From Lingula anatina (lineage: Eukaryota; Animalia; Brachiopoda), in contig CM120642.1 in NCBI GenBank assembly GCA_051362555.1, positions 20,460,001-20,524,000 on the forward strand: DNA of 64,000 nt, given 5' to 3'. Under the pieces are notes generated by a model. It ran no database searches, was not told where the DNA came from, and worked only from the letters and a program-made list of their open reading frames with translations. Both the position numbers and the translations under genes were made by a program. Of this stretch, positions 710 through 43,789 are shown one piece after another; position 1 is the first letter of the stretch; each line of letters begins with the position of its first letter.

Positions 710-900
710 CTGTGACAACCCGATATGTCCGACAGGCCAGATATGTCGGACACAACTGGCTCTTTTTTGTCGGACATATTTGGCCTGTCGGACACATCTG
801 GCTCTTTTTTTGTCGGACATATCTGGCCTGTCGGACATATCTGGCTTGTTCTCTGGTCGTAGGACATATCTGGCCTATCGGACATATCGGGTCGTCACAG
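710..900. mobile_element. MITE-like element with ~38-bp terminal inverted repeats and internal subrepeats
   Basis: CTGTGACAACCCGATATGTCCGACAGGCCAGATATGTC (710-747) matches the reverse complement of 863-900 with 2 mismatches; interior is copies of TGTCGGACATATCTGGC. Confidence 0.75.
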
Positions 901-1055: not shown

Positions 1056-1167
1056 ATGGCAAGCAGAAAAAGCCTCTTAGCTGTGGTCACTGTGCTGTTT
1101 TGGACATCACTGGTCGCAAGCCCTCTGCAGAGTTTTATTCATCATATAAATAAAAGACAGCTTGGTG
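1056..1167 (+). CDS. Exon 1: signal peptide and short propeptide ([37 protein letters not shown])
   Basis: GCAATGG start context; basic n-region plus hydrophobic h-region; donor G|GTAAGT at 1168; phase 1 matches the next exon. Too short for the ORF track. Confidence 0.8.
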
Positions 1168-4100
1168 GTAAGTAAATGCGTTTTTGATAATGAAGCTTGC
1201 CTGATCTTTCTGTGTATGTGTGTGTGGCCCTTGCTGTCAAATTACTCGTCTAGTTTTACTTCACGACGACACCCGCACAAGTTTTGTACTAAAGTAGGCC
1301 TATTTCATGTGAGTTCTCTCTACCTGTGAACTATACAGTATATCTTAATAACTCAGGTTACGTTAAATAATTGGTATGCATCTTTCTTTTCAATACGGGC
1401 ATATTTTTATCCAATGGTTTCATTCAGTTTCTTCTCCCCATGTGAAAGAGAATGCATCACTTTTCTAAAGTCACTAAGTGCAAGTGAAAACCTTCCGCCA
1501 TATTGAGTCTCTTTGGCAAAGAAATTCATGCAGGTGTCTTGTGGGATACGAAACGTTGGAATGGTAGTAACTCTGATATTTAGCTGTTGTTGGAAGAACC
1601 TAACATTATAAGTTTTGGTCTCTGAATTTCAAATGAAAAATAAGCCATCAAATTACAGGTGCGTCCCTGCGTTGCGGTTGCGGGGACGACGCTGCCAAAC
1701 ATCGCTGGGAGCCAGTAAGCGACACATGTCCCATGGGATGTATGACATTTAGGGTCAACGAAGGCTCGGTCAGATCCAGGGAAGGGAGAGACTATCTCAT
1801 CAGCAGAAATGAGGCTCGGTCCTACTGCGCAGAAATAGGTGGCAGACTGGTCGATAACCTCATCTACAGCCTGCAAGACACGCCCCGTTGCTGGTCTGAC
1901 CTGGAGCACTGGATCCAAGGTGCAGGTAAGTGGTGGTCAGCGGTTTCCTGTGGACATTGCCTTTTAGTATAGGGACTCGGTGGGGCTTTACAGGGACCTT
2001 ATACGGGGTTTTCTCCACCAAAAGCGACTTTCCCATGAAAAGAGAGCTTTCTACACAAGAAGCACTACTCCATCCGACCCTGCGCTTGAATGCGACGTTT
2101 AATGTCATAATTACGTAATTAAAATAGTTCTAAAATGTTTGTAGTAGGCCTAACGAAAATATCGCTATGCCCTTTGTACGTTTCATAATAAAAATATCGC
2201 CACCAAGTACTTTAATTTTAGTTCTAACGTATTTTGTGTCTGAAATGGCACATACAGTATGTGCAGCTTAAATTTGCACGATATATGTAGATCTACGAAA
2301 TGGGACAATTTCAAACCCGAATAGATTCAGGGCAGCAGATTATCATTAATGATTTGACAAAACATAAGTGATATATGTATTTTGTATTTTTAATTTGTAT
2401 TTTGATACATGTATTTTTTATACCCATCCCAAACTGATGTATAACTATACGTGTATAAGCATGTACATCTTTTATGTTAACGTATTTCACGAGCCTCTTC
2501 TACGTACTAGTACGACCATAATGAGAGAGAGAGAGAGAGAGAGAGAGCAAAAACAACTGCCAATTTAAATGCCTATCTTCCATTTGTAGGATATGTGGAT
2601 CCTTTTCCTCGATTCACGCAACCCATCACTTTCTGGACAGGAGGGGTTGTAGAACAAGTGTTAAATGGCGGACAAAGAATTCGAGTGAAGTGGAATGGCG
2701 GTACAAACTATTTAGAAAAATTATATACATGCCCTACTCATGCACATACTGTTGATTGGACCATTGGTTATAAGACCTACAAAACGATATTCTTTTATGT
2801 TTAAAGTAATTTTCTAACCATACTTACAAACACTGAAGTTACCAGTATGCAGAATTCAAATATACATCTATGGCCAGGTCATTTTAGTCCCATACTCCAT
2901 TGTTTCCAGTTGGAAATAATGAATACAATATTTGTGTCCGTGATGTGTTTCATTTTAATAGAGCTCAAGATACCCCTATACTGTATGAATGTGAAACAGA
3001 ACAGAAACAAGATAACCAATTCTCTTTCATAGGTCCCGTCGATGTTTTGGACCTTCCTAAAATAAGTGTCGGTACTCCGAAGAAGGGCGATTCTTTAGTG
3101 CTTCGCTACAGCGGCAGCAACAGGGCCGTCAGTGCCACTGATCACAGGCTAGCGTTCCAGTTTACCAACAATGGGAACGATCTTCACTTTCCCCTCTGCA
3201 GCAGAAATTGTTCTGTTGGTAAGACTATAATCAGAAGGTGTATATTTTTTTTTATTTGTTTGTGTGATTAATTATTTTTCATTTGTTAAATTGTCTGTTT
3301 GTATGAATGACGCTTTATCTTCATTATCTTCTTCCTTTTCAGCAACATTAAATATTTTGTTTGTGTTTATTATTCAATCTTGTCCTGTGAACAGTCTTTG
3401 CCACCCCTCTTTTCAGACATATGTGACGACCCAACTGACGTGATGTTTATTCTGGATGCTTCTAGCAGCGTTCTTGACGAAAATTTTGAAAAGATGAAGG
3501 CCTTCGTGAAAGAAGTCATACATGGCTGGGAAATAGGAACAGTTCGCGCCGGAATGATAACGTATGCATTGCCTGCTTCCACAAAACTGGAATTCGATCT
3601 GAAAACATATCTCAACAAGCAAGAACTGCTTGAGGCTGTGGATGAAGTTGTCTACACAAGCTGTCCTCCGGAAGCGGAAGCGTGCACCGCCACCGGGAAT
3701 GCGTTGAGGTTAATGAGGCAGACGATGACCCAAAACAGGGCGGGGATTCGAAATGACGCGCCCAAAATCGCAATTATTCTCACCGATGGAAATACTAATA
3801 TTGGTAATGCTAAATCCTTATTAGCGAAATTTTTGTCTCTGGTAGATGTAATAGCTTAGTTTTCAGCTTTTCTTTTTTTGTGTTTCAGAATTTCAATATA
3901 CGTCAACGAAACAAATTATGTTCGAAAAAAACGCGTTAAAGCAGATTTTGAATACATCTCATACTTTTTAATTGTTTTAATTCTGGTTTTATTATTTGTC
4001 TTTCGTTTGCACTTATATATGGATACCTGCCACGGTATCAGTTCAGCTCAATTTTAACAGTTTTAAAAATGCATTTTAAGGTCTTAACAGCACGGAAGAA

Positions 4101-6204
4101 GCCATCAGGGCCAAAGCAGAGGGGATTGCTATTTACGCCGTTGGTATTGGTCCTGATATCGACTACGAAGAATTGGTTCGGATCTCGGCTTTTGAACCAA
4201 AGAGAGTTGCTCAGACAACATTCGGCTTGTTGCCGACATTGATTAAGTCTGTTTCAAAGAGGGCTTGCAGGGGTAGGTAAAATGTGCTTCTGATGTTGAT
4301 ATATTTGTAAAGTAAATTCTAATTTTAGAGTAGAGCTACACCTCTCATTTTAACCAAAAAAATTTTGCCCGTGCAAAAAAGTCACACAACTTTCTTTCAT
4401 TATAAAGAATGAAAGCATTTTTGAGCGTATTGTGTAGGCCTACAATGTGCGTCGCTGCATGTAAATATTAAAAGTTTGTCGAATAATCCTTAATCTACGG
4501 GACTTAAGAACTTTCTATACCCAATCTGTTGACACATATTTCGATTTCGTTAACACAGTGGGTATACTGATTATTCTTTTTTTATAAGAACAGTTCCGTA
4601 CTGAACTATCGGGGTATGGACAAATTTGTTATTAGATTTGGGTGGAACATGCTATTTCAACACTGTATATTCTTCAGGTGTATCATTTTAATTCTGTTCA
4701 TTTTTATTTTAGCTTCAATGTCTTTAAGTGCGGTAGTCTTCCATTCAAAACTTTTCTCACATTTAATTTGCATTTGACATTTCTATGGATATCGTATTTT
4801 TGTAATTCTAAAACAATTACACGTTTTGCCTACATAGTAATTGCAATGATACTTACATTTAATCTAATGTGAGAGGAAGCTTCACGCGTGCGGTGAAATC
4901 TCAATAGAGCATTACAATCTTGATGTTAATTTTCAAGTTCTTCTTAAAATTCAATACACAGGCAATATGTAGGTTTAATATATCATTTCAGGTGACTGCG
5001 TACCTGTCCCGAGCACCACGTGTTCAAGTAAGTCTCCTGGCGTTTCTGTTATTGCCTTAATTGTCAATAATCATGTAATATTCAAAACTTGATGTGAGTT
5101 GCGGTCGTATCTAGTTATCTAATACGACCTGAGTAAACGTTTTGGCAACATCATTTAGGAAAATGTTATGGCACATGTAATCTTTATCCCGCATATCAAT
5201 TGGTCACAAGAGCCGAAACCCCATAAACAACATCAATTTTGCAGATAAATGCCCATATCTAAGGTTTTACAGTTATTTGCTGTTATTAGTGTAATTTGAA
5301 ATGTGCCTCTCAAACTATGCATATACTTTTGGAAATAGCAATATATCTCTAGTCACAAATACATTCATGGAGCCAAATGTTCACAAGCACAACAAAGCTT
5401 AGTTTTTGCTCAAAATGAAAAAAGAAATAATTCCATATGACTGATATTGTCATTTAATTGATCTGTCATTTCATTTTGAAGAATGTATGCTAAGGTACAA
5501 CTGCGAGGCCAACAAATACAGCATTCCTCTCCAGTGTCCGGATGACTCAAGTATCAATGTGCTGGGCTTCTGTAACGCCGGGGACCTGACGTGCCTGGAT
5601 CACAATCAGAGACATAATCCGCTCCTGGTGTTCGCGCGAACCCAGTGTGATGGCAAGAGCGAGTGTAAACTGGACGTGATACAAGACTGTCTGTCACCGT
5701 CACCGCCTCCGCCTCTCAGAGTGAATTATATGTGCTGCGAGTGTAAGTATCATTATTATTAAATATTATGTTATGAAGCAATGTCTTTATTAAAGCTTTT
5801 TTCGTAGTAAGGGCGATTTTTTACCGCAGTTTTATCTCACTAACACTAATACAGAAATACAAATAAGTAATCACATGATTTATTAACTGGATTTGTGAAC
5901 AGAATTTTTTTGTCCAGTAGATATGAAAAATATACTGTATGCTTGCAATTTAAAGTTCAAGTGTAATATGAACATAATTAGCAGCTGCCACACTGACGGA
6001 TAAATCATAACCTATCGAAATTTCACCGAATGATGGAGCAAAATGGATTGTTTTCAGCGACCATTAGTTTGTGTCCATGTCCCTGCTCTCCTAACCCGTG
6101 TAATAATGGCGGACAATGTACTCCACTCACGGAGCGGAGTTACAAGTGCGCCTGTCGCCCTGGCTTCACCGGACTGAACTGCGAAACACGTAAGTGAAAT
6201 CTTA

Positions 6205-6235
<31 letters not shown>

Positions 6236-8223
6236 CGCGCGCGTGTGTGTGTAAGTGTATGTGTGTAACATGTATCTTGCCCTATACTCATTTAACTGAA
6301 TTTGGCCAATTTTGAGTATTAGGAAGATAAGATAAGCAGCATATGCACCTGCATGCGAAAAAATTGAATGCTTGTTTCTTTGAACGTCGTTATTATCTTT
6401 ACCTTCTTCAACCAGCATTAAAATCTGAACACCAACTGAAACAATATTGTCAATCTACCGGTATATTGCCCACCGTCACTTCCAGATTTATGTGCAAGAA
6501 CAATAACTTGTGGGACCGTCACTTCAGACACTGATTGACTTGCTACATACGTGACTGCTTGTTTATACAACTGCTACTATACATGTATACTGAAGTACAA
6601 TTTAAAATATGTGTCATTTGTCTTAAGACAAAATTGCCGTCGTTTTCAGCACTGTTCTGCGCAGATTCTCCTTGTCTCAATGGCGGCACGTGTCAGGCAC
6701 GTGATGATGGCTGGGGGTACTACTGCGACTGTCCCGTTGGTTACTACGGCTTCAAATGTCAACATGCTCGCACGTGCACATGTGCATGCGCGCCAAATCC
6801 ATGTCAGAATGGCGGCGAATGCAGCGTCGGGGAGAGAGGTGGACCGAGCTGCAAATGTCGGCCTGGGTTCACTGGAGCTCTGTGTCAAACATGTAAGTAT
6901 GGAAAAAAGAAACTCCGCAGTCTGGACTAATCTGATGTTTTTTCATTGCTTAATTTTCTATAGTAATGTAGATATTTACATTAATTAACGAACGGAAAAT
7001 GCATACATTATATTTAGATAGATTCTAGGCTACTTATTTTACTCAATGTTTTAACTGAAATATTCATACCGGTTTAGTTTTTTGAGTTTGAATATTGTTT
7101 TCACTTTTCTGTACACTTCAGTTCTTTATAAAAACTTTCATTATCTCCTGCAATGTGCCGTGATAGTTTTTATAAAACGTTGCAAAATTAAATATCGATA
7201 GATACAGCAACTAAAAACAGGCCAGTAGTTAACACCTATAATTATACCCTATTTCAGCACTAATCTGCAGGGGCAGTAACCCGTGCCAAAATGGGGGCAC
7301 CTGCGTCGTGCGTGACGATGGATTTGGCTATTGGTGTGAATGCCCATTTGGTTACTATGGTTACGCTTGTCAACATAAACAAGCCTGTCTGCCCAATCCT
7401 TGTGTGAATGGCGGTACCTGCATGTCTCTGTCCACGGGGGGATACACCTGCTCCTGTTACCCGTGGTTCACCGGAGAAAACTGTGAAAAATGTAGGTGCT
7501 TTTAGATTTGCTCAGTTTCAGATATCTCATCGGGGGTGTATCCAGTAATTTCAAACAGGGCCTTTTACCGAAAAAGTACATCTTTTTACCTGCTTCGTTG
7601 ACCGAGTTGAGATTAAAACTAAGATCTTTGATGTACAGCGTTCCTTTCCGTCGAAAGAGCGTTTTTTTCCAGATTCTAAGGGCCTGTATTACCATTTTTA
7701 TATACGAAAATAAACTGTGTGTGTGTATTGCTAGATTATATAGTTTTTTATTATATTGATGTGCATTACACAGTTGACTTTGTTTTTAGCTCAGATCTGC
7801 GACCCTAACCCCTGTATAAACGGTGGAACTTGTGTGTCTTCTCACAACGGTCACAATTTCTATTGCGATTGCGAGTTTCCTTTCTTCGGGGAAGTATGCC
7901 AGCTGAGTAAGTTGTTACTTGATCTTTTTACTATAGTGCGATGACAGATGGAGAAAGTGGTTTAAGCTATTAAGTTAAAAGTCTGTATATTTTTTTTCAG
8001 CTTTTACATGCATCAGGTTAATTCTTATTTTGTTCCTGCAAGTTAGTTTATTTCACTGTTGAATATGTAACGATGCCTGGCTGTAATGTTGCATTTCGGT
8101 CATAACTATTCAGTTGCAGTGAGAGATCTCAAAACAGATCGATTATTTGTGTGCGATGTTTGGTTTAATTATCCAAATATGATTTGCCATGTACACATTG
8201 CTACAAAGTTGCCAAAGCACATG

Positions 8224-8289
<66 letters not shown>

Positions 8290-11200
8290 CGTTCGTGCAT
8301 GCGTGTGTTTCGGTAGTAGGGGGATTCTCAAAGTCACTCGATTTTAAAGAAGTGTTCCTATTATCGTTGTATATTATCGTTGTATGTTATCGTCATAGGT
8401 TTCCAGAACTACATTACGACCCTAATGTTAACCAGCCCAGTCGTTTTTGGTGCCACGGGTCCTCCAGGACCAGCTGGCCCTACTGGTCCCACGGGCCCAA
8501 GCGGAAGCGACGGAGAACCAGGAGCTAGTGGCCAGACCGGCTCAACGGGGCGAACAGGGGCCAGAGGTGAAACCGGCCAAGACGGTGACGATGGACCAGT
8601 GGGTCCCGCCGGACCAACAGGGGACCGAGGACCCATTGGAGAGACAGGTACAAGCTATTTGTTGGTTTGTTAGGTGTTAAAACGAGTAAAATGCTGTAAA
8701 AAAGAATAAAGCAAGTATGGGTTTACACACTGAAAAGACACGCATTTAATTGATTTTACGATGACAAACTTCGTTATAATCGTAACAAATTTTCACAAGT
8801 GGTCTGGATAAGTTCCCAAATGATTTAACAACCAAAATAATTTTAACATATGCCTTAAAACTATGCCTTGCAAAAACTTAATATCTTTCTGTATAAAATC
8901 AGAGATCTCCTTGACTTACACTGTACGATACGTCTTTAATGCACCTATACGATATTTCAGGTCCGGCCGGACCTCAGGGCTCCAGAGGTGATCGTGGCCC
9001 AACTGGTGTTTCCGGAGAAACCGGCTCCGCGGGAAGAGACGGCGAACCCGGGCGACCAGGGTCAACTGGCTCCACCGGGCCACAAGGACCAGCTGGGGGT
9101 GCAGGGCCTCAAGGACCCACTGGACCTGCTGGACCCAGAGGCCAGCAGGGTGAAATGGGTGAGAATGTCCGTCTTATTGATCTGAAGCGGTGTTTATTTG
9201 ATGCTATGTTTATACCTGGTCATCAGCTTCAGGTTGTGACAAGAATGGTAGTCCTCTAGGAGCCGTAGTCCATTTCTTGAAACAAGTTGACATTCGTTCC
9301 ATATGCAAACCCCTATAATTCCACTTACCCTAACCCGTACCAATTAAATGGGACCCAGCACTTCCTGTCACACCAACATAGAGGGTGATCCCTCACTTTT
9401 GAGTTCAAAAGTGGGTCATCTTAATCCAAGTTTCCTACATTAAACAATAGATTGATCCATTATTTATTATTTTATCAACAGTTGTGAGAATTGTGCTGTC
9501 TTAACAGAGGTCTGTACTCTCCGGGTGCCTTTCTGGGTTCATATTGCTTTGTTTAAGTCGCGTTGCACTTAACACATTCCTTAGGCCTATACTTGTTTAT
9601 CTTGAAGTCGATGGATGCAAATCTTTCTTATGTTCTTCTATAGGAGAAACAGGTGCGCCCGGTCCTGCAGGCGCAACAGGAGAAGCAGGTCCTAAAGGGG
9701 ACAGCGGAGCACCAGGTGAACCAGGACGCACTGGTGCCCCTGGCCCCACTGGAGCTCAAGGTGTCTCCGGCGCATCTGGAAGTCCTGGGAAAGACGGCAA
9801 CCAGGGGCCTACCGGTCCTGCCGGACCACAAGGTGGGCCACGCTCAGCATGCATATATTATGTATTGTAAAACTTAAAGATATCATTAAGAATACTTCAT
9901 ATTATTTTACAGTCCTCCTTTTATAGTACTTCTGTTCTTCCTACCGAGTAAAAAGTTTTACAGGGTTTAAAATGCAAATAATCGTAGAGTTCTAGATCAA
10001 CTATCACAGACATTAGGTTTTGTATTTTCACAGTAGTTTCTTCATATGAACAGGTCCGAGAGGCCCTACGGGCACAGCAGGTGCAACAGGTGCTCCAGGT
10101 GAACAAGGTGCCCAGGGACGCCCTGGCATGACTGGAGCTCGAGGCGAGACTGGACCTAGGGGTGCTGTAGGTCCACCGGGACCAGCCGGATCAGCCGGAC
10201 CCAGTGGCAGTACAGGCCCCATCGGGCCAAGAGGGCCAACTGGGTTCAGAGGGGAAGCAGGAGAGAGAGGTCCAAAGGGAGATAGTGGACAACCAGGGCC
10301 AACAGGCCAGTCTGGTGTACCAGGCGAACCCGGACGCACAGGAGACGCTGGCCCGGTAGGGCCTAGGGGCCAAACTGGCAGTCCTGGAGTCAGTGGAGGA
10401 ACGGGTGCAGCAGGGCCAGCAGGTGCCCGTGGGCCTACGGGTGATCGTGGACCGACTGGTGCAGGCAGCACTGGACCCACAGGGCCCACGGGACCACAAG
10501 GACCTGCTGGCCGCACTGGTGCTGCAGGCGCTGATGGAGAGGACGGTCGTCCTGGACAAACTGGTGCAAAAGGTGCTGATGGTTCACCAGGCTCCCCAGG
10601 TCCAAGGGGACCTACCGGTGCACAGGGTCCTGCTGGAGATAGAGGCCTACCCGGTGCCAGAGGGTCAACTGGACCTGCAGGCCCTGAGGGTCCCAGAGGA
10701 GCAACGGGCGCACAAGGTAGTTCTGGCACGACTGGACCGCAAGGAACACAAGGGGCGTCAGGAAAGGACGGCAGCCCAGGGCCAACAGGTGCCCAGGGTC
10801 AAGCCGGAGCACCAGGAGCTACCGGACCAGCTGGCCCTGCAGGTCCACGAGGCCCCAGTGGTGCACAAGGCAGACCAGGTGCAACTGGTCCTAGTGGACC
10901 TGCTGGACAGAGTGGCAGAGATGGTTCACCTGGTGCGACTGGTGCGCCAGGTAGGACTGGAGCTAGGGGACAGACCGGTGACCGTGGTGCAGACGGGGAA
11001 CCTGGTGAAGATGGGGCTCCAGGTGCTACTGGACCAGCGGGTGCCCCTGGTAAACCAGGAGCTACCGGGGAAGCAGGTAGACCTGGTTCCACAGGTGCTC
11101 AGGGTCCTCCTGGCCCACAAGGCTTTGCTGGTCCAGCTGGTACACAAGGAGAGACTGGTCCTCCTGGTCCTCCAGGCAGTACCGGCGCTAGGGGCCAGGA

Positions 11201-13633
11201 CGGAAGTGACGGCGCGAAAGGTGATAGCGGTCCACCCGGGCCCACTGGACCCGCGGGAGCACGAGGCCAAACTGGCACTCCCGGCCTTCCTGGTCAGAGT
11301 GGAGAAGATGGAGCTCCCGGTCCCAAAGGGGAAGACGGTGAAGATGGACAACCAGGAGCCCGTGGCCCGCCAGGACCCACGGGGCCCAGTGGGCAACCTG
11401 GACCTAGAGGAGAGGCTGGTGAACCTGGAAGTCCTGGACCGACCGGTCCTGCTGGTCAGCAGGGAGCTGATGGTGAAGATGGACCACCAGGCCCTACAGG
11501 TCCTGCAGGCCCCAGAGGTGAGACAGGAGAAGCGGGAAGTTCGGGTAGTCCAGGTCCACAAGGGCCTACGGGACCGACAGGGGCATCGGGAGATTCAGGA
11601 ATGGTTGACAGTTGCTTTCCAACCTTGCATTGCCCAGTACCTTGCTACAGCGGATATACATCACGTAAGCTTTTTTTCTCGATTTAATCTATTACTTTTT
11701 GGTCCAGTTAAGTGATATTCCAAATTTAATGGAACTGCATTGTTTTTAGAGTAGAACGCGTGCAAATTTTAACAGGTATAGTATTATTGCGGAAGAAATA
11801 AATATATGCATTTGTGTATAATACCATACTTACATCTTAATCGAATTTTCATGCTCTTAGTGTGTAACGGAAATATGTGGCAGAATCCAACAGCGCTGGT
11901 AAGCAGAGCCGTATCTCTCATCGACCAGTGTGGGATATTCCCCCGGAATAACGTTAACTTTCTTTGGCGGTCTTACTGGATGAATCCCTACACCGTCAAT
12001 CTTCCTGGCAGCGGGGGGTGCGGCCCAGGCGGGTGTCTCGGGGGAGGTTTCCCAACTGGTATTCATTATGGCGGCTACCCCGGCCCAAACTCTGGGCCCG
12101 TAGGAGCACCAGCAGGTCTCATGGCTCACTTTCAGCCTCCGGACGGCAGCAACACATCCGTACAGGCGGCGTGGAAAGCAGTCATGAACGTGAACGGCGG
12201 GTCCCCAATGACTGTAGACCCTCAGAAACTTGGGGCGGGCGGACTGTGGCAGGTGAGAAAGAATCTGCTGATATTACACCAATCAGTAGAAGTCGACGAC
12301 AGAACGTTATAATAACGTTACCATAATGTTTTTTTTGTTTTTATCAACGTTATGGTAAAGTTATAATAACGTTATGTGTTTATGGGATAGGAGCGGAGCC
12401 GGTGTGATAGGAATGGTAGTCCTAGGAATGGAAGTGCGGAGTCCCGTATGATTAGTACTAGTTAGGATTAGTCGGATATTGGGGTTAGTATATGGGACGA
12501 TAATGGACCACCTGTACAAATTAATGGGGAACGGAGTACGATTCCCAGCAATCTACCATTCCTGTCACACCGGTAGTGGGGCTTGAGCACTTTTTTCAAC
12601 CAGTTCAGTAATAACCACGAAGGGCAGAGACCTAAGGGAGGGCTGGGTTCCACTGCTTTGAAACTAAATGTAAACTTCAGTGTATCATTAAAATGTTGCG
12701 CCGAGGACTGCGACTTATTTTCTCAACCAGCTTGCAACATCATTTACATCATTTTTTGCCATTTCCCCTTTCTCTGTCGCTAATTGTGTGTCTACTTATG
12801 ATTCCCCCTTGCAGCTTATACTTTTCATCATACGAGCCTGAATAATTTTCATTCGTTAGTAGAATTGTGGATGTTCTACCGCATGTAGCAACGCTTGAAA
12901 TTAAACACATGTTAGATTAAGGGGGTAAGCGACTCAAGCGTTGCAAGTTAATGTATGGCAAGCCAGCAATTTCAAAAAGGGGGGTTCTTTTTCTGAATAT
13001 AGTTTTTCCCATAAAAACTTCATGTACCTAGATCAAATTTTCCCAGAGTGGACCTTTTCCTAGCAAAAAGGGCGGTTCTTCGAACCCCCCGAACCCCCCT
13101 GGCTACGGGCCTGTATGGGTATCTCTGGATAGACTTCAGCCCTTCCTTCAGCTACAAGTGCAAGTGGGTACAAACAAGCCGCCCACTTCCCTTAGCTAGT
13201 ATAGCGTATAGTTATAGGGTTTGGACCTAGGACTATGCGCTACAATGGAGCATCGCAAGATCTCCCCTAAATATTCAAAACTTTGGTATGATTTTCTGCC
13301 TTCCAGGTTCCAGAGAAAATGTTCAACGCCACCAAAAGGGCCGCTGATCGTCGCGCCTTACAGAACTACTACCAACAGATACAACGGCAGTTCTGCGTGG
13401 ATTGGACACAGATGCCGTACGGCTGTTTGCGCAACCCCCTTTACTCCGCCATGGCAACACAGATGTACCTCTTAGTACAGCCCAGGCCAGTGCCCTCGGG
13501 ATGCGCCCAGCAGGCTACGATGTGGTCCAATTTCGTTCAGCAGTCCAATATGCGGCAAGCGTTTGTACAGAACTGTTACTCAGCCCCGAACTATAATCAG
13601 TTGAATCAACAGCTTCAGTATTTTCTTGTGTAA
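1056..13633 (+). CDS. Whole gene model: secreted multidomain collagen (SP-CTLD-like-vWA-SUEL-EGFx6-collagen-lysozyme-like), 18 coding exons, ~1788 aa (1774 aa with the alternative exon 13 acceptor)
   Basis: Hand-joined exons 1056-1167, 1659-1925, 2590-2700, 2910-3218, 3417-3803, 4081-4272, 4992-5027, 5482-5742, 6058-6189, 6650-6892, 7258-7491, 7790-7906, 8399(or 8441)-8647, 8961-9158, 9644-9832, 10054-11664, 11861-12252, 13307-13633. All are GT-AG bounded and frame-compatible without stops. AATAAA follows at 13833. Confidence 0.85.
1659..1925 (+). CDS. Exon 2: N-terminal part of a C-type lectin-like domain
   Basis: TACAG acceptor, GTAAG donor, 267 nt. W..V...C..F...[17 protein letters not shown] matches the CTLD helix-1 pattern (EA..YC...GG.LV). 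Confidence 0.8.
2523..2547. repeat. (GA)n microsatellite
   Basis: Direct observation. Confidence 0.9.
2590..2700 (+). CDS. Exon 3: CTLD-like middle part (FWTGG...VKWNG)
   Basis: TTTGTAG acceptor, GTACAA donor, 111 nt, phase 1-1. FWTG and KWNG resemble the CTLD WIG and W.DG motifs. Confidence 0.7.
2910..3218 (+). CDS. Exon 4: Cys-containing segment ending [11 protein letters not shown] (probable CTLD C-terminal strand with a long insertion)
   Basis: TTTCCAG acceptor, GTAAG donor, 309 nt open frame, phase 1-1. Confidence 0.75.
3417..3803 (+). CDS. Exon 5: von Willebrand factor A domain, first part
   Basis: [12 protein letters not shown] (MIDAS DxSxS), [16 protein letters not shown]; TTTCAG acceptor and GTAATG donor. 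Confidence 0.95.
4081..4272 (+). CDS. Exon 6: vWA domain, second part
   Basis: Translates [37 protein letters not shown]...RACR, the typical vWA C-terminal half. TTTTAAG acceptor, GTAGGT donor, 192 nt. Not in the ORF track. Confidence 0.9.
4992..5027 (+). CDS. Exon 7: 36-nt micro-exon linker ([12 protein letters not shown])
   Basis: Strong TTTCAG acceptor and GTAAGT donor; GC-rich island in an AT-rich intron; phase 1-1. Confidence 0.7.
5482..5742 (+). CDS. Exon 8: SUEL / rhamnose-galactose-binding lectin-like domain (divergent)
   Basis: CE.....LQCP....I.V ... [10 protein letters not shown] ... DC ... LRVNYMC reproduces the SUEL cysteine pattern; GTAAGT donor; 261 nt. Confidence 0.8.
6058..6189 (+). 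CDS. Exon 9: EGF-like domain 1
   Basis: [12 protein letters not shown]...[15 protein letters not shown]; TTTTCAG acceptor and GTAAGT donor; not in the ORF track. Confidence 0.92.
6205..6252. repeat. Compound (CT)n(GT)n(GC)n microsatellite
   Basis: Direct observation. Confidence 0.9.
6650..6892 (+). CDS. Exon 10: EGF-like domains 2 and 3
   Basis: [12 protein letters not shown]...[12 protein letters not shown] and [12 protein letters not shown]...[12 protein letters not shown]; canonical splice sites. Confidence 0.93.
7258..7491 (+). CDS. Exon 11: EGF-like domains 4 and 5
   Basis: [13 protein letters not shown]...[12 protein letters not shown] and [12 protein letters not shown]...[12 protein letters not shown]; canonical splice sites. 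Confidence 0.93.
7790..7906 (+). CDS. Exon 12: EGF-like domain 6
   Basis: [12 protein letters not shown]...[14 protein letters not shown]; TTTTTAG acceptor and GTAAGT donor. Confidence 0.92.
8224..8286. repeat. Compound (CT)n(GT)n microsatellite
   Basis: Direct observation. Confidence 0.95.
8399..8647 (+). CDS. Exon 13: start of the collagen triple helix (Gly-X-Y from 8449); acceptor at 8399 or 8441
   Basis: 22 uninterrupted Gly-X-Y triplets; donor G|GTACAA splits a Gly codon; two frame-compatible acceptors. Confidence 0.88.
8961..9158 (+). CDS. Exon 14: collagen Gly-X-Y (22 triplets, includes one RGD)
   Basis: 198 nt; TTTCAG acceptor and GTGAGA donor; perfect Gly periodicity. Confidence 0.93.
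9232..9374. mobile_element. Degenerate MITE with GGTGTGACAGGAA-type TIR, in intron 14
   Basis: GGTTGTGACAAGAATGGTAGTCCT ... TTCCTGTCACACC; left end is shared with the element at 12399; internal CCCTAACCC. Confidence 0.55.
9505..9539 (+). mobile_element. Possible 3' end of a Helentron-associated (HINE/DINE-like) element
   Basis: CAGAGGTCTGTACTCTCCGGGTGCCTTTCTGGGTT resembles such termini (short hairpin, then TTCT(A/G)GTT). Recognised from memory only. Confidence 0.25.
9644..9832 (+). CDS. Exon 15: collagen Gly-X-Y (21 triplets)
   Basis: 189 nt; CTATAG acceptor and GTGGGC donor; perfect Gly periodicity. Confidence 0.92.
10054..11664 (+). CDS. Exon 16: large collagen exon (~172 triplets, one G-A-G interruption) followed by a Cys-rich neck
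   Basis: 1611 nt open frame; helix ends at GDSGMV and is followed by [19 protein letters not shown]; AACAG acceptor and GTAAGC donor. Confidence 0.95.
11861..12252 (+). CDS. Exon 17: C-terminal non-collagenous domain part 1, with a Gly/Pro-rich insert
   Basis: CTCTTAG acceptor (phase 1), CAG|GTGAGA donor (phase 0); ends ...GAGGLWQ. Confidence 0.85.
12303..12373. repeat. Imperfect 28-bp inverted repeat (hairpin) in intron 17
   Basis: AACGTTATAATAACGTTACCATAATGTT matches the reverse complement of 12346-12373 with 3 mismatches. Confidence 0.7.
12399..12573. mobile_element. MITE with 21-bp TIRs in intron 17
   Basis: CCGGTGTGATAGGAATGGTAG ... CTACCATTCCTGTCACACCGG (1 mismatch); weaker complementarity continues inward. 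Confidence 0.75.
12954..13113. mobile_element. Degenerate non-autonomous DNA transposon with a CAGGCCCGTAGCCAGG-type end
   Basis: Right end GAACCCCCCGAACCCCCCTGGCTACGGGCCTG; eroded left end AGCCAG...AAAAGGGGGGTTC. Confidence 0.45.
13307..13633 (+). CDS. Exon 18: C-terminal domain part 2 and stop codon
   Basis: TTCCAG acceptor, phase 0, gives GGLWQ|VPEKMF...FCVDW...[10 protein letters not shown]...QATMW...; TAA at 13631-13633. Confidence 0.85.
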   Translation, partial: VPEKMFNATKRAADRRALQNYYQQIQRQFCVDWTQMPYGCLRNPLYSAMATQMYLLVQPRPVPSGCAQQATMWSNFVQQSNMRQAFVQNCYSAPNYNQLNQQLQYFLV

Positions 13634-13832
13634 GACATGTGTACCTTCGGCCCAACCGGGCACTGGATTATAACATATTGACATGAGGTGGCGTTGGTTT
13701 AATTGACTTTGATGATAACGGAAATGCAACCCGGTTCCAATTTATGAAAAGCAAGCATTTCTTTATATTTGCTTTAGAATTGGTAATCTGCACTTGAACC
13801 AAACTTTCTGGAGTGTGAAAAATGTATTCTTT

Positions 13833-13838
13833 AATAAA
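13833..13838 (+). promoter_or_regulatory. Probable polyadenylation signal of the collagen gene
   Basis: AATAAA 200 nt after the stop codon. Confidence 0.55.
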
Positions 13839-15530
13839 AAGTTGAATTTGCTGGACTTTAAGATTTAAGATGTGATAGTGCTGAAGTAAAATTGCTGGCT
13901 TCTCAACTATCGCAACGGGGACGTAAACCAGTGTTTAAAATCTCTCTCTCTCTCTCTCAATTATAAACTCTACCACTGCTCCAAGGGATAATTTAATGCC
14001 TTGCAAACAATTATCGAACTACTTATGCAAGATATTCTCGTTTGACAAAAGACATAAAATCAGGGAATTCAATTTTGTTGGACTTAACTATAGATGTATA
14101 GAACTGTTGTTAACACCATGAAAAATTCATCTCCTTACAAGCCATGATCGTTGATTTAAAAAAAATTGATTATCCCTGGAAAGTCTATTAAAATGTTATT
14201 CTGATTAATGAACTACCCCCCCCCCCCCCCATCGTTGTCAGTAAAATAAGTAACTCATAAGGTCAAAGATTATCTGTATTTCTTACAAAAGTATAGAGAA
14301 AAAGAAAGGTTTTGTCTTAAGTTAAAAAATGTAAAAAACGCAAGCTTATATGACAACCATCAAAGTCGGGTTTCATTTAAAACGAAAAAAGTTTGTCCTG
14401 GAGAAGTTCCAAGATGTAAATTAAAACTTCTTAATTCACCAGAAGCGTGACGCGTGTATGTTTCTTTATGTATTAACCGCCGTAACCCTCCTTGCCATGA
14501 CAGATTTAAGACACTCCGGAACTAAAGATTATCTACAAAATGCAAATATGCTGGGAGATAACATACTTAGGGGATAGACTTGACAGCGGAAAAGATTTTT
14601 TAACCGCAAAGTTATTGTGTAGCTAACTGCGAAGTGAACTTATTCACTCAAAATGCATGCATGTAACTCCATAATTTGACACTGAAAGAGGGTTTGTGAA
14701 CTTTTATGAAAATTAGGCTAAATTCATTTGATATTAATTTAGCATGTTTGTTCGTTTTTTTAATTTTTTGTTTATTAATTTTTTTTCAAATCGGTTGAGT
14801 TATTTCATTTTGGTTTACTTAAATAATAGACCCCCACCCCACGTTTAGGACCAATATGAAGACAGTTAAAGCGCAACAATTTAATGATTGTGATTGATTA
14901 TAATATAATATTATCTGCAACGTCTATCTATAATCGTTGTGCCCTCACTATCGTATTTCTCAACGGAAATCTGTAATAACCACGTCAGACCATACCTGTA
15001 AGTGGTCATGCAGTATCTGTTGTTTTTTTTTCTAATATGCAGTGCGTTACCATTTGCCTTGCCTTCAATCAATAAGGTGATGTCGATAAAAATATCATTA
15101 ACAATAAAATAATGAATTAGTAAAAACTCCCTGGACAGATGATTCAAACACGTTATAAATGTCAGTCATAACAGTGCCATTTATTTTCACTAAGTGAACA
15201 GAGCACACGCACCCCCCCCCCCCCCCCCCCCCCGTAAATGTAGCATACGCTGGGATATTTGAAGGTTTAGCTATAATGAGATCTAGAGTTGTGAGTCCTT
15301 ATAAAATGAAGAATATAAAATATAATATAGTGTATTAATAAAAATGACAGTTTTGTAAAAAAAATACTTGTATTAACCTTATCATACTTAGATGTAACCA
15401 GAATTTGTACATGAGTCGAGTCCGTGTTTTTGATAAAACTACTGTTATTTACAGAAAATATATATCTATAGTAGAAAATAACAATTTGTTTCACTGAACA
15501 AGTAATGAATATAATACGATATGGCTCAAA

Positions 15531-16637
15531 TTACTTCTTTTCTCCACAGAGACCACTATTACTCCGCCATGGCGCAAAGCTGTTAATTTGTGACAGAGGC
15601 GTCGGTTGTTTCATCCATTCAATAACCTGGCTACTAGTGACAAAGAAAACGTCATCCATTTTGTTAATGTATCGAATAAAACGCTTTAGTCCATCAAAAG
15701 CTTGGTTATTTTCCAGCCACTTTCCTTGGAAATAAAGCCCGTATGGAGCGCGCTTTCTGTTGTAATATTCCGAGAAAAACTGAGCCAGCAAGACATTGAA
15801 AGTATCGTCTGAGGTGGTCACTTTGCAATCGTCCATCATGGCGCACCCTTGACCGTCTGTGCCGTACATTCGATTAATTGGAATTTCCCAAAGTCCTGGG
15901 TAAGATGCGTTTGGGCAGTTTGAAGGGTAGATATCACAGAGTGTATTATTTGGCGGGATATCTAACGTGAATGGATAGAAAGGTGGGAAAACTGCGTAAT
16001 TGTGTGCCGACGTCGGTCCCGTTACCATGGAGGAATCGTAGGTGAAATTATAGTCTCGCAGCATTCTGTACATGTTATTTCCTCCCGGCTGCAAATATGG
16101 CACTCGCATGCCAGTTATTTTACCCTCGGGTATATCTGTTCCTGTTTCCAAGTTGATTCTCTGTCCGTAGATTTCGTAAACGTAGTCCAAGTAGGAGGCG
16201 CTGTTCCACCACAGAGGAGGCTGTCGTCTGCTCTGGCTGTTACTTGCGATCTCGTGGCCCCGCGCGTATAGCTGCCGGACAGCGTTGTAATCCGTCCTTT
16301 CCTGATCCGGTACGAAAAATGTAGCTGCGATGGGGCATCCGTTGGGATTGATAATGTCGATGGGGAATAATTGTTCGAAGAAGCTGGCAACGTACGCGGT
16401 AACGGCGAGATCAAATGAAACTATGACCATCTGAGGCACAGCGCTGGGGTTTAAATTATTTGGCGGGTTAGGACTCGGGCAGCGACAAGCTGGGGGCTGG
16501 CAGAAGCGCTCCGTACATGGAGCTAGCGGTCCAGATATCAGATCGTAGCACGCCACTGGGCTGAGTTCTCGTAGTAACAAACAGGACGCTGTCAAAATAA
16601 ATAAGATATACCAAGTTCCTGTGTTTTTTCTAGTCAT
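15531..16637 (-). CDS. Secreted chitin deacetylase-like protein (CE4/NodB fold, metazoan CDA type), predicted catalytically inactive, 368 aa, single-exon CDS
   Basis: Signal peptide; C....C..P.CRC...P..L....VPQMV..SFD; NPNGCPI.ATFFV; GHEIAS; GMRVPYLQ.GGN; F.YDSSM; PFTLD; YPGLWEIP; C.M.D.C; RAPYGLYF; DVFFVT.SQVIEWM..P are all motifs of animal CDAs. No CBM14 or LDLa domain. Confidence 0.93.
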   Translation of the reverse strand: MTRKNTGTWYILFILTASCLLLRELSPVACYDLISGPLAPCTERFCQPPACRCPSPNPPNNLNPSAVPQMVIVSFDLAVTAYVASFFEQLFPIDIINPNGCPIAATFFVPDQERTDYNAVRQLYARGHEIASNSQSRRQPPLWWNSASYLDYVYEIYGQRINLETGTDIPEGKITGMRVPYLQPGGNNMYRMLRDYNFTYDSSMVTGPTSAHNYAVFPPFYPFTLDIPPNNTLCDIYPSNCPNASYPGLWEIPINRMYGTDGQGCAMMDDCKVTTSDDTFNVLLAQFFSEYYNRKRAPYGLYFQGKWLENNQAFDGLKRFIRYINKMDDVFFVTSSQVIEWMKQPTPLSQINSFAPWRSNSGLCGEKK

Positions 16638-42532: not shown

Positions 42533-42850
42533 GTAGGTGACGTCGGCTGCGGTGGCAGGGCGCGTGACGGCAGCGCGACGGCAGCGTCGTGTACATATAA
42601 CCCGAATGCATAATGCAGGGCGAATCGCAGCCACGCTTATCCGACCGTGTATACTATAAGATATTAGCAATCACTAGAAGAAGTGCTTAACACTTTATCT
42701 TTTTCATATTTTATGAAGTGGATATTTTCTGTGTCAACTACGCCGGGGGTGAGGTGAGAAAAGTATGCATCACTTACAGATTGATTACCTTGGCGTGTTT
42801 GTCGTTAATTAATTACTTATATTCACAATCTTTTGTTTTGACTTTTGCAG

Positions 42851-43789
42851 GGAAACATTTTTGGTGGTATTGGAAGTATCGATGACTCCATGCTTGCAAG
42901 AGTGGAGGCGTTGGCCGCGGGAGCAGTGGATATTTCGAAGACTCCCCAGTCACTGATGAAGTCGGATAGTCTGTATGGACACCATGTACAAGATATGAGA
43001 GACATGCGGGACATGAGGGATATGAGAGACATGAGAGACATGAATATGCACGGGCACCCGGGGGGTTCAGGGGGCATGTCCCGTCACCACCAGGTGCCCC
43101 TGCACGGCTTTGGGGCCCCGTCGACAGATTCCATGATGTTAGACCAAATCTCAGCGTCCATGCCTCTCTCGATGGCGGATCACAACAACATGATCACCTC
43201 CCACTCTCACTCACAGGTTTACGCGCAAGCGTACGGGCACACAAACATTATGAATCCCCAGCCTACCCTCCCTGCTCACCACGCCATGCAGCACAGCATG
43301 CACGATCTAGACTGTGACCCCAGGGAGCTGGAGGCGTTTGCTGAACGCTTTAAGCAGCGCCGTATAAAATTAGGCGTTACACAGGCCGACGTCGGAGGGG
43401 CGCTGGCCAAGCTGAAACTCCCTGGGGTAGGAGCGCTCAGTCAGAGCACCATATGTCGGTTTGAAAGTCTAACTCTTAGCCATAATAATATGATTGCATT
43501 AAAACCCATTCTCCAGGCCTGGTTGGAGGAGGCGGAACGACAGGCGAAGGAGAAGAAGGAAGGGGCGGCTCTTTTAGGAAACTTGGAGAAAAAACGTAAA
43601 CGTACCTCAATCGCAGCTCCTGAGAAACGCTCTCTCGAAGCATATTTCGCCGTGCAGCCCAGACCATCGGGAGAAAAAATCGCGCAGATCGCAGAGAAAT
43701 TAGATCTAAAAAAGAATGTGGTCCGTGTGTGGTTCTGCAATCAGAGACAAAAACAGAAGAGAATGAAATTTTCTGCTGTAAACCACTAA
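42851..43789 (+). CDS. POU4: POU class 4 transcription factor exon 2 (POU-IV box, POU-specific domain, POU homeodomain); 352 aa in total
   Basis: GNIFGG..DDSMLARVEALAA..VDI (POU-IV box); DPRELEAFAERFKQRRIKLGVTQADVG...LSQSTICRFESLTLSHNNMIALKP; EKKRKRTSIAAPEKRSLEAYF...WFCNQRQKQKRMK, diagnostic of class IV; TTTTGCAG acceptor. Confidence 0.98.
   Translation, partial: GNIFGGIGSIDDSMLARVEALAAGAVDISKTPQSLMKSDSLYGHHVQDMRDMRDMRDMRDMRDMNMHGHPGGSGGMSRHHQVPLHGFGAPSTDSMMLDQISASMPLSMADHNNMITSHSHSQVYAQAYGHTNIMNPQPTLPAHHAMQHSMHDLDCDPRELEAFAERFKQRRIKLGVTQADVGGALAKLKLPGVGALSQSTICRFESLTLSHNNMIALKPILQAWLEEAERQAKEKKEGAALLGNLEKKRKRTSIAAPEKRSLEAYFAVQPRPSGEKIAQIAEKLDLKKNVVRVWFCNQRQKQKRMKFSAVNH

What the first reader, a model, noticed from the sequence alone, without database searches (positions are those of the whole stretch)
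1056..16637. Candidate matrix-building module: lectin/vWA/EGF collagen paired tail-to-tail with a dead chitin deacetylase
Seen in sequence: two secreted-protein genes converge with stop codons ~1.9 kb apart. Every carbohydrate-related fold they encode looks deactivated or re-tuned. The CE4 protein lacks its Asp-His-His metal triad. The collagen's C-terminal lysozyme-like domain lacks the Glu-Ser motif. The CTLD lacks EPN/QPD and WND. The SUEL lacks YGR, DPC and KYL. Established knowledge: CE4 deacetylases and lysozyme-fold proteins both act on beta-1,4-GlcNAc polymers, and inactive glycosidase homologues (e.g. GH18 chi-lectins) often persist as binders. Inference: the two products may be co-secreted to tether a collagen rod to chitin/chitosan in a shell, tube, chaeta or cuticle, or to capture microbial glycans. 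Adjacency alone is weak evidence in animal genomes.
Basis: partly seen in the sequence, partly recalled or inferred. Interest (0 to 1): 0.85.

Follow-up and report, generated by a model that had tools for sequence, protein, structure and literature searches.

The report
Collagen capped by disarmed phage-type lysozyme
In the brachiopod Lingula, a transcribed collagen gene ends in a domain related to a phage protein family predicted to cut cell walls but lacking its conserved glutamate, so it likely serves as a non-cutting cap; the neighbouring deacetylase-like gene, which has lost its metal-binding residues, is likely an unrelated neighbour rather than a partner.

Summary
Both genes are real (Lingula anatina, named), and the motif losses are confirmed. 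The 'module' is not supported. In 4 RNA runs laid (of 9 listed), one holds about 800 collagen reads and no deacetylase read; two hold about 9-10 deacetylase reads and no collagen read. EGF-collagens of Lingula are published. What is new lies in the collagen itself. Reads join it to a C-terminal domain that RefSeq splits off after a frameshift in its model. That domain belongs to an animal family without a Pfam entry, seen beside vWA, CBM14 and EGF domains. The family matches phage family phrog_3108, which lies next to holin genes in some phages, and a homologue's model matches lysozyme-fold structures. The family keeps a helix-end Glu in 53 of 58 covering domains. The Lingula copy has none and carries an 83-residue spacer where relatives have about 14. 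The CE4 protein lost 4 of 5 catalytic or metal residues but only 3 of 52 other invariant positions: a conserved pseudoenzyme. Binding by either protein is untested.

The parts
1056..13633 (+). Secreted EGF-collagen gene, 18 coding exons: 1056-1167, 1659-1925, 2590-2700, 3033-3218, 3417-3803, 4081-4272, 4992-5027, 5482-5742, 6058-6189, 6650-6892, 7258-7491, 7790-7906, 8399-8647, 8961-9158, 9644-9832, 10054-11664, 11861-12252, 13307-13633; 1747 aa
   Evidence: One open frame. 12 of 17 introns appear among the joints shown (14 further joints not shown). Exons 1-15 agree with RefSeq LOC106160501.
1056..1121 (+). Signal-peptide-like hydrophobic N-terminus
   Evidence: Read from the sequence; no predictor was run.
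1659..3218 (+). Degenerate C-type-lectin-like domain (aa ~38-225), no EPN/QPD/WND
   Evidence: Atlas features 27 of 30 hits Lectin_C at 0.90-0.91; no Pfam hit; single-sequence fold failed.
3417..4272 (+). vWA domain with MIDAS residues present (DASSS...T...D)
   Evidence: PF00092 E 1.1e-22 for exon 5, 4.1e-29 in P0109.
5482..5742 (+). Degenerate SUEL-like domain, no YGR/DPC/KYL
   Evidence: PF02140 E 0.023, below cut-off; acceptor 5482 from reads.
6058..7906 (+). Six EGF-like repeats
   Evidence: PF00008, 6 stretches.
8449..11606 (+). Collagen rod: 111 + 126 Gly-X-Y triplets with one short interruption; Thr is the commonest Y residue
   Evidence: Y position: Thr 58, Pro 44 of 241 triplets counted (the 241 include 4 Gly triplets outside the rod).
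11613..11664 (+). Cysteine-rich linker directly after the rod (three Cys here, a fourth at the start of the next exon)
   Evidence: Translation; role in chain registration is inferred.
11861..13633 (+). C-terminal lysozyme-like domain of the phrog_3108-related family; no Glu at the end of the catalytic-type helix (11959-11988); 83-aa Gly/Pro-rich spacer before GGLWQ
   Evidence: Family HMM E 1.5e-30 for the C-terminal half, weak match (E 0.01) for the first helix. Joints 11664>11861 (52 reads) and 12252>13307 (60 + 77 reads in X4)..
15531..16637 (-). Single-coding-exon CE4 (chitin-deacetylase-like) pseudoenzyme, 368 aa; RefSeq LOC106160500
   Evidence: E 1.8e-56 to Bombyx chitin deacetylase 5zns; D77L, H133N, H137R, H304Q; low-level reads in X1, X2.

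Best explanation
These are two separately expressed neighbours: a transcribed Lingula EGF-collagen whose C-terminal domain is related to a phage lysozyme-like family and lacks that family's conserved glutamate, so it likely acts as a non-catalytic cap, and a chitin-deacetylase-like protein that has lost its metal ligands and is likely inactive. Shown: gene structure, the read-supported fusion, homology, residue losses, and opposite read distribution in three runs. Inferred mechanism for the collagen: three chains are registered at the cysteine linker and C-terminal domain and fold into a rod of about 200 nm. The rod is possibly stabilised by O-glycosylated Thr in the Y position, as reported for Riftia cuticle collagen. 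The N-terminal vWA (MIDAS intact), EGF and degenerate lectin domains would link it to other matrix proteins. The disarmed lysozyme-fold cap would serve as a structural end domain and may also hold a GlcNAc polymer. Inferred for CE4: a folded, secreted chitin-associated pseudoenzyme used in another tissue or stage.
For: Expression: X4 about 800 collagen reads and 0 CE4; X1 and X2 0 collagen and about 10 and 9 CE4; X7 about 34 and 2 (estimates from depth). Chance of 0 CE4 reads in X4 at the X1/X2 rate is 7e-4. Fusion: spliced reads across both last introns; RefSeq splits the gene after a frameshift at aa ~1023 of its model. Family: 76 hits at E<=0.001. Of 40 scanned, 8 carry vWA, 3 CBM14, 1 EGF, 1 trypsin, 0 collagen. 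All 8 intact members scanned match phrog_3108 at E 4e-33 to 9e-10. A homologue model (pLDDT 88.9) has lysozyme-fold chains as top hits (MltE Z 8.3, MltC 8.1, phiKZ gp144 8.1). Glu in 53 of 58 covering domains, none in Lingula. CE4: 4 of 5 catalytic or metal sites lost against 3 of 52 other invariant sites, Fisher p 4e-4. Collagen coding differences in reads: 26 of 34 listed are at third codon positions and 8 change a residue.
Against: Only 4 of 9 listed runs were laid, at about 6% (X1, X2, X4) or 25% (X7) of each. CE4 counts are about 10 reads, tissues are unknown, the runs come from three studies, and X7 has a little of both genes. The Lingula domain itself matches phrog_3108 only at E 0.075 and was not folded whole. 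Foldseek gave no hit at E<=0.001 for the homologue, and Z near 8 is middling by the tool's own note. The 83-aa spacer may block the cleft, which argues against glycan binding. No binding, trimerisation or Thr glycosylation was shown.
Confidence: 0.65

Rival explanations
1. Co-secreted matrix module: both products are made together and tether a collagen rod to chitin or chitosan in shell, chaetae or pedicle cuticle.
For: Adjacency is the same in RefSeq: all three models lie on one 70,353-bp contig. Both proteins have signal-like N-termini and disarmed GlcNAc-polymer folds. 3 of 40 family members scanned carry CBM14. The Lingula shell is a collagen-chitin composite (PMC13425148, passages). X7 has traces of both genes.
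Against: Opposite read distribution in X1, X2 and X4. Convergent genes share no promoter. No row of matching length and domains in the 2015 shell proteome Table 25. No accession starting XP_0133925 in the 2026 proteome supplement. A second CE4 copy lies on another contig without a second collagen found.
Confidence: 0.1
2. Pattern-recognition or glycan-anchoring collagen: as in ficolins and collectins, the rod displays a trimeric head, here a disarmed lysozyme fold that binds peptidoglycan or chitin without cutting it.
For: C-terminal globular domain on a collagen stalk. The family is lysozyme-fold and its phage members sit beside holin and spanin genes. The downstream conserved blocks ([18 protein letters not shown]) are kept.
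Against: The rod (237 triplets) and the 776-aa N-terminal region are far larger than in collectins or ficolins (recalled). The 83-aa spacer sits where the family has about 14 residues. No binding data.
Confidence: 0.2
3. The CE4 gene is a decaying retrocopy with no function, and the C-terminal domain is a relic under little constraint.
For: Single coding exon, low expression, and a near-identical second copy.
Against: Full-length open frame; 49 of 52 non-catalytic invariant positions kept at only 51% identity to the closest relative; the collagen's last exon is its most deeply covered part in X4.
Confidence: 0.05

Closest known systems
Lingula EGF-domain collagens (Luo et al. 2015, PMC4595640; 17 genes, 4 in the shell proteome)
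   Same: EGF repeats plus a long Gly-X-Y rod, no COLFI domain, same species.
   Different: The four shell members listed are 774-1548 aa, basic (pI 9.4-11.3) and carry only Collagen and EGF. This one is 1747 aa, pI about 5.6, and adds lectin-like, vWA, SUEL-like and lysozyme-like domains. Fig. 6b, which may show this gene, could not be seen.
Phage family phrog_3108 (e.g. phiKO2 gp54) and the lysozyme superfamily (MltE, MltC, phiKZ gp144, GH23/GH73)
   Same: Shared motifs AxxE...G..QvD...L..P..A....RL......IP.....A.YWK; a homologue's model has the lysozyme fold.
   Different: The Lingula copy has no helix-end Glu, has a long Gly/Pro spacer and is fused to a collagen. The family has no Pfam or NCBIfam entry and no solved member. 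Endolysin activity is inferred from gene neighbourhood only.
Bivalve phage-type lysozymes (PMC5303276, abstract)
   Same: An animal gene related to a phage lysozyme, with intron gain and gene fusions.
   Different: Those were reported as antibacterial and confined to two bivalve subclasses. This family is named in echinoderms, an annelid, molluscs, a mite and a brachiopod. That they are different lysozyme families rests on recall (GH24 type) and was not tested.
Insect and lophotrochozoan chitin deacetylases (BmCDA1 5zns, BmCDA8 5z34; inactive BmCDA6 in PMC7953033)
   Same: Alignable over about 320 residues, E 1.8e-56; motifs 3 (RVPY) and YDSS kept.
   Different: Metal triad Asp-His-His replaced by Leu-Asn-Arg; motif 5 His replaced by Gln.
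Riftia cuticle collagen (glycosylated Thr in Y; cited within PMC6953826, passages)
   Same: Thr is the commonest Y residue (24%), ahead of Pro (18%).
   Different: No sequence comparison was made; glycosylation is untested.
Collectins and ficolins (recalled)
   Same: Collagen stalk with a C-terminal globular head of a carbohydrate-related fold.
   Different: The head is neither a C-type lectin nor fibrinogen-like; the stalk is much longer; binding is unshown.

Membership tests
Lingula EGF-collagens | EGF and collagen domains in one protein, no COLFI | tested here: met
Lingula shell-matrix collagens | Peptides in the shell proteome | tested here: inconclusive
   No matching row in Table 25 and no XP_0133925* in the 2026 supplement, but gene IDs could not be mapped and the public model is frameshifted.
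Fibrillar collagens | C-terminal COLFI domain | tested here: not met
   No COLFI hit in the last two exons.
Active CE4 chitin deacetylase | Sequence homology to the NodB/CE4 barrel | tested here: met
   (E 1.8e-56); PF01522 only E 0.038.
Active CE4 chitin deacetylase | Asp-His-His metal triad (motifs 1, 2) | tested here: not met
   L77, N133, R137; motifs as in PMC7953033.
Active CE4 chitin deacetylase | Motif 5 His | tested here: not met
   Q304; His in 11 of 12 aligned relatives.
phrog_3108-related animal family | Sequence homology to the family profile | tested here: met
   E 1.5e-30 to a profile of 14 members; Atlas 0.95-0.96 to unnamed phage and bacterial clusters.
Lysozyme superfamily | Lysozyme fold | tested here: inconclusive
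   Seen for homologue P0048 (Z up to 8.3; no Foldseek hit at E<=0.001); the Lingula domain was not folded whole.
Active lytic transglycosylase / GH23-type enzyme | Catalytic Glu at the end of the helix | tested here: not met
   No Glu in that part of the domain. That the family's Glu is the catalytic one is inferred from its helix-end position.
C-type lectin domain | CTLD fold | tested here: inconclusive
   Atlas lead; no Pfam hit; fold failed.
C-type lectin domain | EPN/QPD and WND sugar-binding motifs | tested here: not met
   Absent in aa 38-225.
SUEL lectin | Pfam gathering score | tested here: not met
   15.5 vs 31.4 bits; YGR, DPC, KYL absent.
Co-regulated two-gene module | Co-expression | tested here: not met
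   (4 of 9 runs, low counts).
Co-regulated two-gene module | Conserved linkage in relatives | not testable with these tools
   No animal genomes are held.
Collectin/ficolin-like pattern receptor | Glycan binding by a trimeric head | not testable with these tools
   Needs a binding assay.

The most novel reading that the evidence does not exclude
A widespread but unnamed animal protein family descends from, or shares ancestry with, a phage endolysin family (phrog_3108). Lingula has disarmed one copy and mounted it as the trimeric head of a collagen, giving a ficolin-like or chitin-anchoring collagen whose binding head is a dead lysozyme.
Probability: 0.2. Interest if true: 0.8.

Novelty: new variant of a known kind. 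Interest (0 to 1): 0.5.

Why it matters
It corrects a split public gene model and gives a collagen C-terminal domain of a kind not found in the literature searches run here. It also ties an animal family without a Pfam entry, most of whose members keep the putative catalytic Glu, to a likely phage lysis enzyme. That makes a new class of animal lysozyme or chitin-active enzyme directly testable. The two-gene module itself would matter for brachiopod shell and chaeta assembly, but the evidence is against it.

Tried and rejected
No whole genome was available, so no genome-wide paralogue or synteny test; tblastn of the window found no second CE4 copy. No RNA holder was listed by the index; the runs came by species label. 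The word-index search with the last exon found nothing among longer proteins, weak evidence. Exon-7/8 junction 5027>5495 was rejected (frameshift) in favour of 5027>5482. My first exon-4 acceptor (2964) was dropped for RefSeq's 3033; no read joint for it was visible. Single-sequence fold of the N-terminal domain failed and was not searched. PDB sequence search with the family profile: nothing meaningful. NCBIfam: nothing relevant. Foldseek: no hit at E<=0.001. P0065 was left out of the family count as a likely false hit (1 of 75 non-self hits); 21 of 79 domain hits do not cover the Glu column. Phage context is not uniform: of 6 loci read, 3 closely related ones have a holin next door, phiKO2 has a 3-TM 101-aa gene upstream, and 2 marine phages show no lysis annotation. 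Complex prediction was not used: adjacency alone does not justify it, and the whole C-terminal domain is not available as one stored protein. Literature searches for the family and for inactive lophotrochozoan deacetylases found nothing on point. Earlier scan notes: none.
Full report
Identity and gene structure. The CE4 protein is RefSeq LOC106160500 of Lingula anatina. It is one coding exon on the minus strand (16637..15531, 368 aa), and its stop lies 1898 bp from the stop of the plus-strand gene. The plus-strand gene has 18 coding exons and one open frame of 1747 aa. RNA reads show 12 of its 17 introns among the joints displayed; 14 further joints were not shown. The first 15 exons agree with RefSeq LOC106160501, from which I took the exon-4 acceptor. 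Order of domains: signal-like N-terminus, degenerate C-type-lectin-like domain, vWA, SUEL-like, six EGF, 111+126 Gly-X-Y triplets, a cysteine linker and a C-terminal globular domain.

The public model is wrong at the 3' end. LOC106160501 goes out of frame at about aa 1023, inside the large collagen exon, and the last 131 aa are filed as a separate gene, LOC106160506. In the window the frame is open. Run X4 has 52 reads joining 11664 to 11861, and 60 plus 77 reads joining 12252 to the last exon (two alleles). The fusion of collagen and C-terminal domain is therefore transcribed.

The C-terminal domain. A full profile search with the last exon gave 76 proteins at E<=0.001. Of 40 scanned against Pfam, none has a family for this domain apart from a sub-threshold SLT trace in one. 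Eight carry vWA, 3 CBM14, 1 EGF, 1 trypsin and none collagen. All 8 intact members scanned match phage family phrog_3108 (E 4e-33 to 9e-10); the Lingula half-domain matches only at E 0.075 but matches the animal profile at E 1.5e-30.

Phage context and fold. In phage PSA28 the phrog_3108 gene is followed by a holin and an Rz-like spanin, and two close relatives have an annotated holin there. In phiKO2 it follows a small three-TM gene. Two marine phages give no lysis annotation. A model of homologue P0048 (pLDDT 88.9) gave no Foldseek hit at E<=0.001. In the wide structural search nearly all of the 50 rows shown are lysozyme-fold chains, led by MltE (Z 8.3, rmsd 3.8, 126 aligned), MltC and phiKZ gp144. 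The conserved Glu sits at the end of helix 54-63, where such enzymes carry the catalytic Glu (established knowledge). It is present in 53 of 58 domains that cover the column (79 domain hits, 21 not covering) and in the three phage proteins. The Lingula copy has no Glu in this part and has an 83-residue Gly/Pro-rich spacer where relatives have about 14. It is most likely inactive. Whether it binds glycan is open, and the spacer may close the cleft.

The CE4 protein. It aligns with Bombyx chitin deacetylases over about 320 residues. The metal ligands are L77, N133 and R137 and the motif-5 His is Q304; D76, RVPY and YDSS remain (motifs as in PMC7953033, passages). Against 10 relatives it lost 3 of 52 other invariant positions but 4 of 5 catalytic or metal sites (Fisher p 4e-4). 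That fits a folded pseudoenzyme under constraint. Its closest relative (P0002, 51%) has the triad intact. A second copy, 99% identical, lies on another RefSeq contig and may be an allele.

The module test. Four of nine listed runs were laid. Estimated from depth: X4 about 800 collagen reads in bins 10078-12213 and 0 CE4 reads; X1 and X2 0 collagen and about 10 and 9 CE4 reads on the expected strand; X7 about 34 and 2. Zero CE4 reads in X4 has probability 7e-4 at the X1/X2 rate. Putative poly(A) signals (13833 on +; 15180 and 14771 on -) do not overlap. Neither protein could be matched in the two shell proteomes, though the frameshifted public model weakens that check. Synteny could not be tested.

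Other features. The vWA MIDAS residues are present, so not every adhesive domain is degenerate. Thr is the commonest Y residue (58 of 241 triplets, Pro 44). This recalls Riftia cuticle collagen, where glycosylated Thr stabilises the helix (cited in PMC6953826, passages); glycosylation here is untested. The C-type lectin label is a lead only.

Relation to what is known. Lingula EGF-collagens are published: 17 genes, 4 in the shell (PMC4595640; passages, supplement parts 9 and 19 read, figures not held, and Fig. 6b may include this gene). PMC13425148 (passages and supplement searches) repeats this. Phage-derived lysozymes in bivalves are known (PMC5303276, abstract). PMC6139136 (passages) lists phiKO2 among phages with two-component spanins, without gene numbers. 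Searches for this animal family or for a collagen with such a cap found nothing on point; the library lacks most subscription papers, and bioRxiv supplements were not available.

Verdict. Observation confirmed; module unlikely (about 0.1). The collagen is a new variant of a known class, with a C-terminal domain architecture missed by the public annotation. The unnamed, mostly Glu-intact animal family with phage relatives is the more valuable lead. Interest 0.5.

Noticed in passing
window 42842-43789 (+): Exon encoding a POU domain plus homeodomain (PF00157 E 1e-30, PF00046 E 2e-18); looks like POU4/Brn3 (label recalled). It is the only other clear gene seen in the window.
   Followed up: partly
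proteins P0028-P0102: A widespread animal family without a Pfam entry, homologous to phage phrog_3108, mostly with the putative catalytic Glu, alone, in tandem repeats or fused to vWA, CBM14, EGF or trypsin. Three members have Met at the Glu position.
   Followed up: partly
L001 2962-3453, L002 2827-3324, L005 2327-2824, L006 1165-1662: phrog_3108 ('unknown function') lies beside holin and spanin genes and is likely an unannotated endolysin family; phiKO2 gp54 is a member.
   Followed up: partly
LR756504.1 441777-442232 (hit H1): A 636-kb uncultured phage record holds three matches to an unnamed member of the family (best 39% identity), closer than any cultured phage.
   Followed up: no
window 744-888: 43-bp tandem repeat (3.3 copies) about 170 bp upstream of the collagen ATG.
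   Followed up: no
window 9235-9271, 12403-12500 and 12961-13113: Intronic dispersed repeats that draw many partial reads in all four runs; reads join 9265-9270 and 12500 on opposite strands.
   Followed up: no
RefSeq LOC106179801 (P0026): Second CE4 pseudoenzyme copy, 5 residues different, on a 240-kb contig; allele or recent duplicate.
   Followed up: partly
window 2964-3032: An in-frame 23-codon extension upstream of the RefSeq exon-4 acceptor reads ...ILYECE, resembling a C-type lectin end; possible alternative acceptor, no read support seen.
   Followed up: partly
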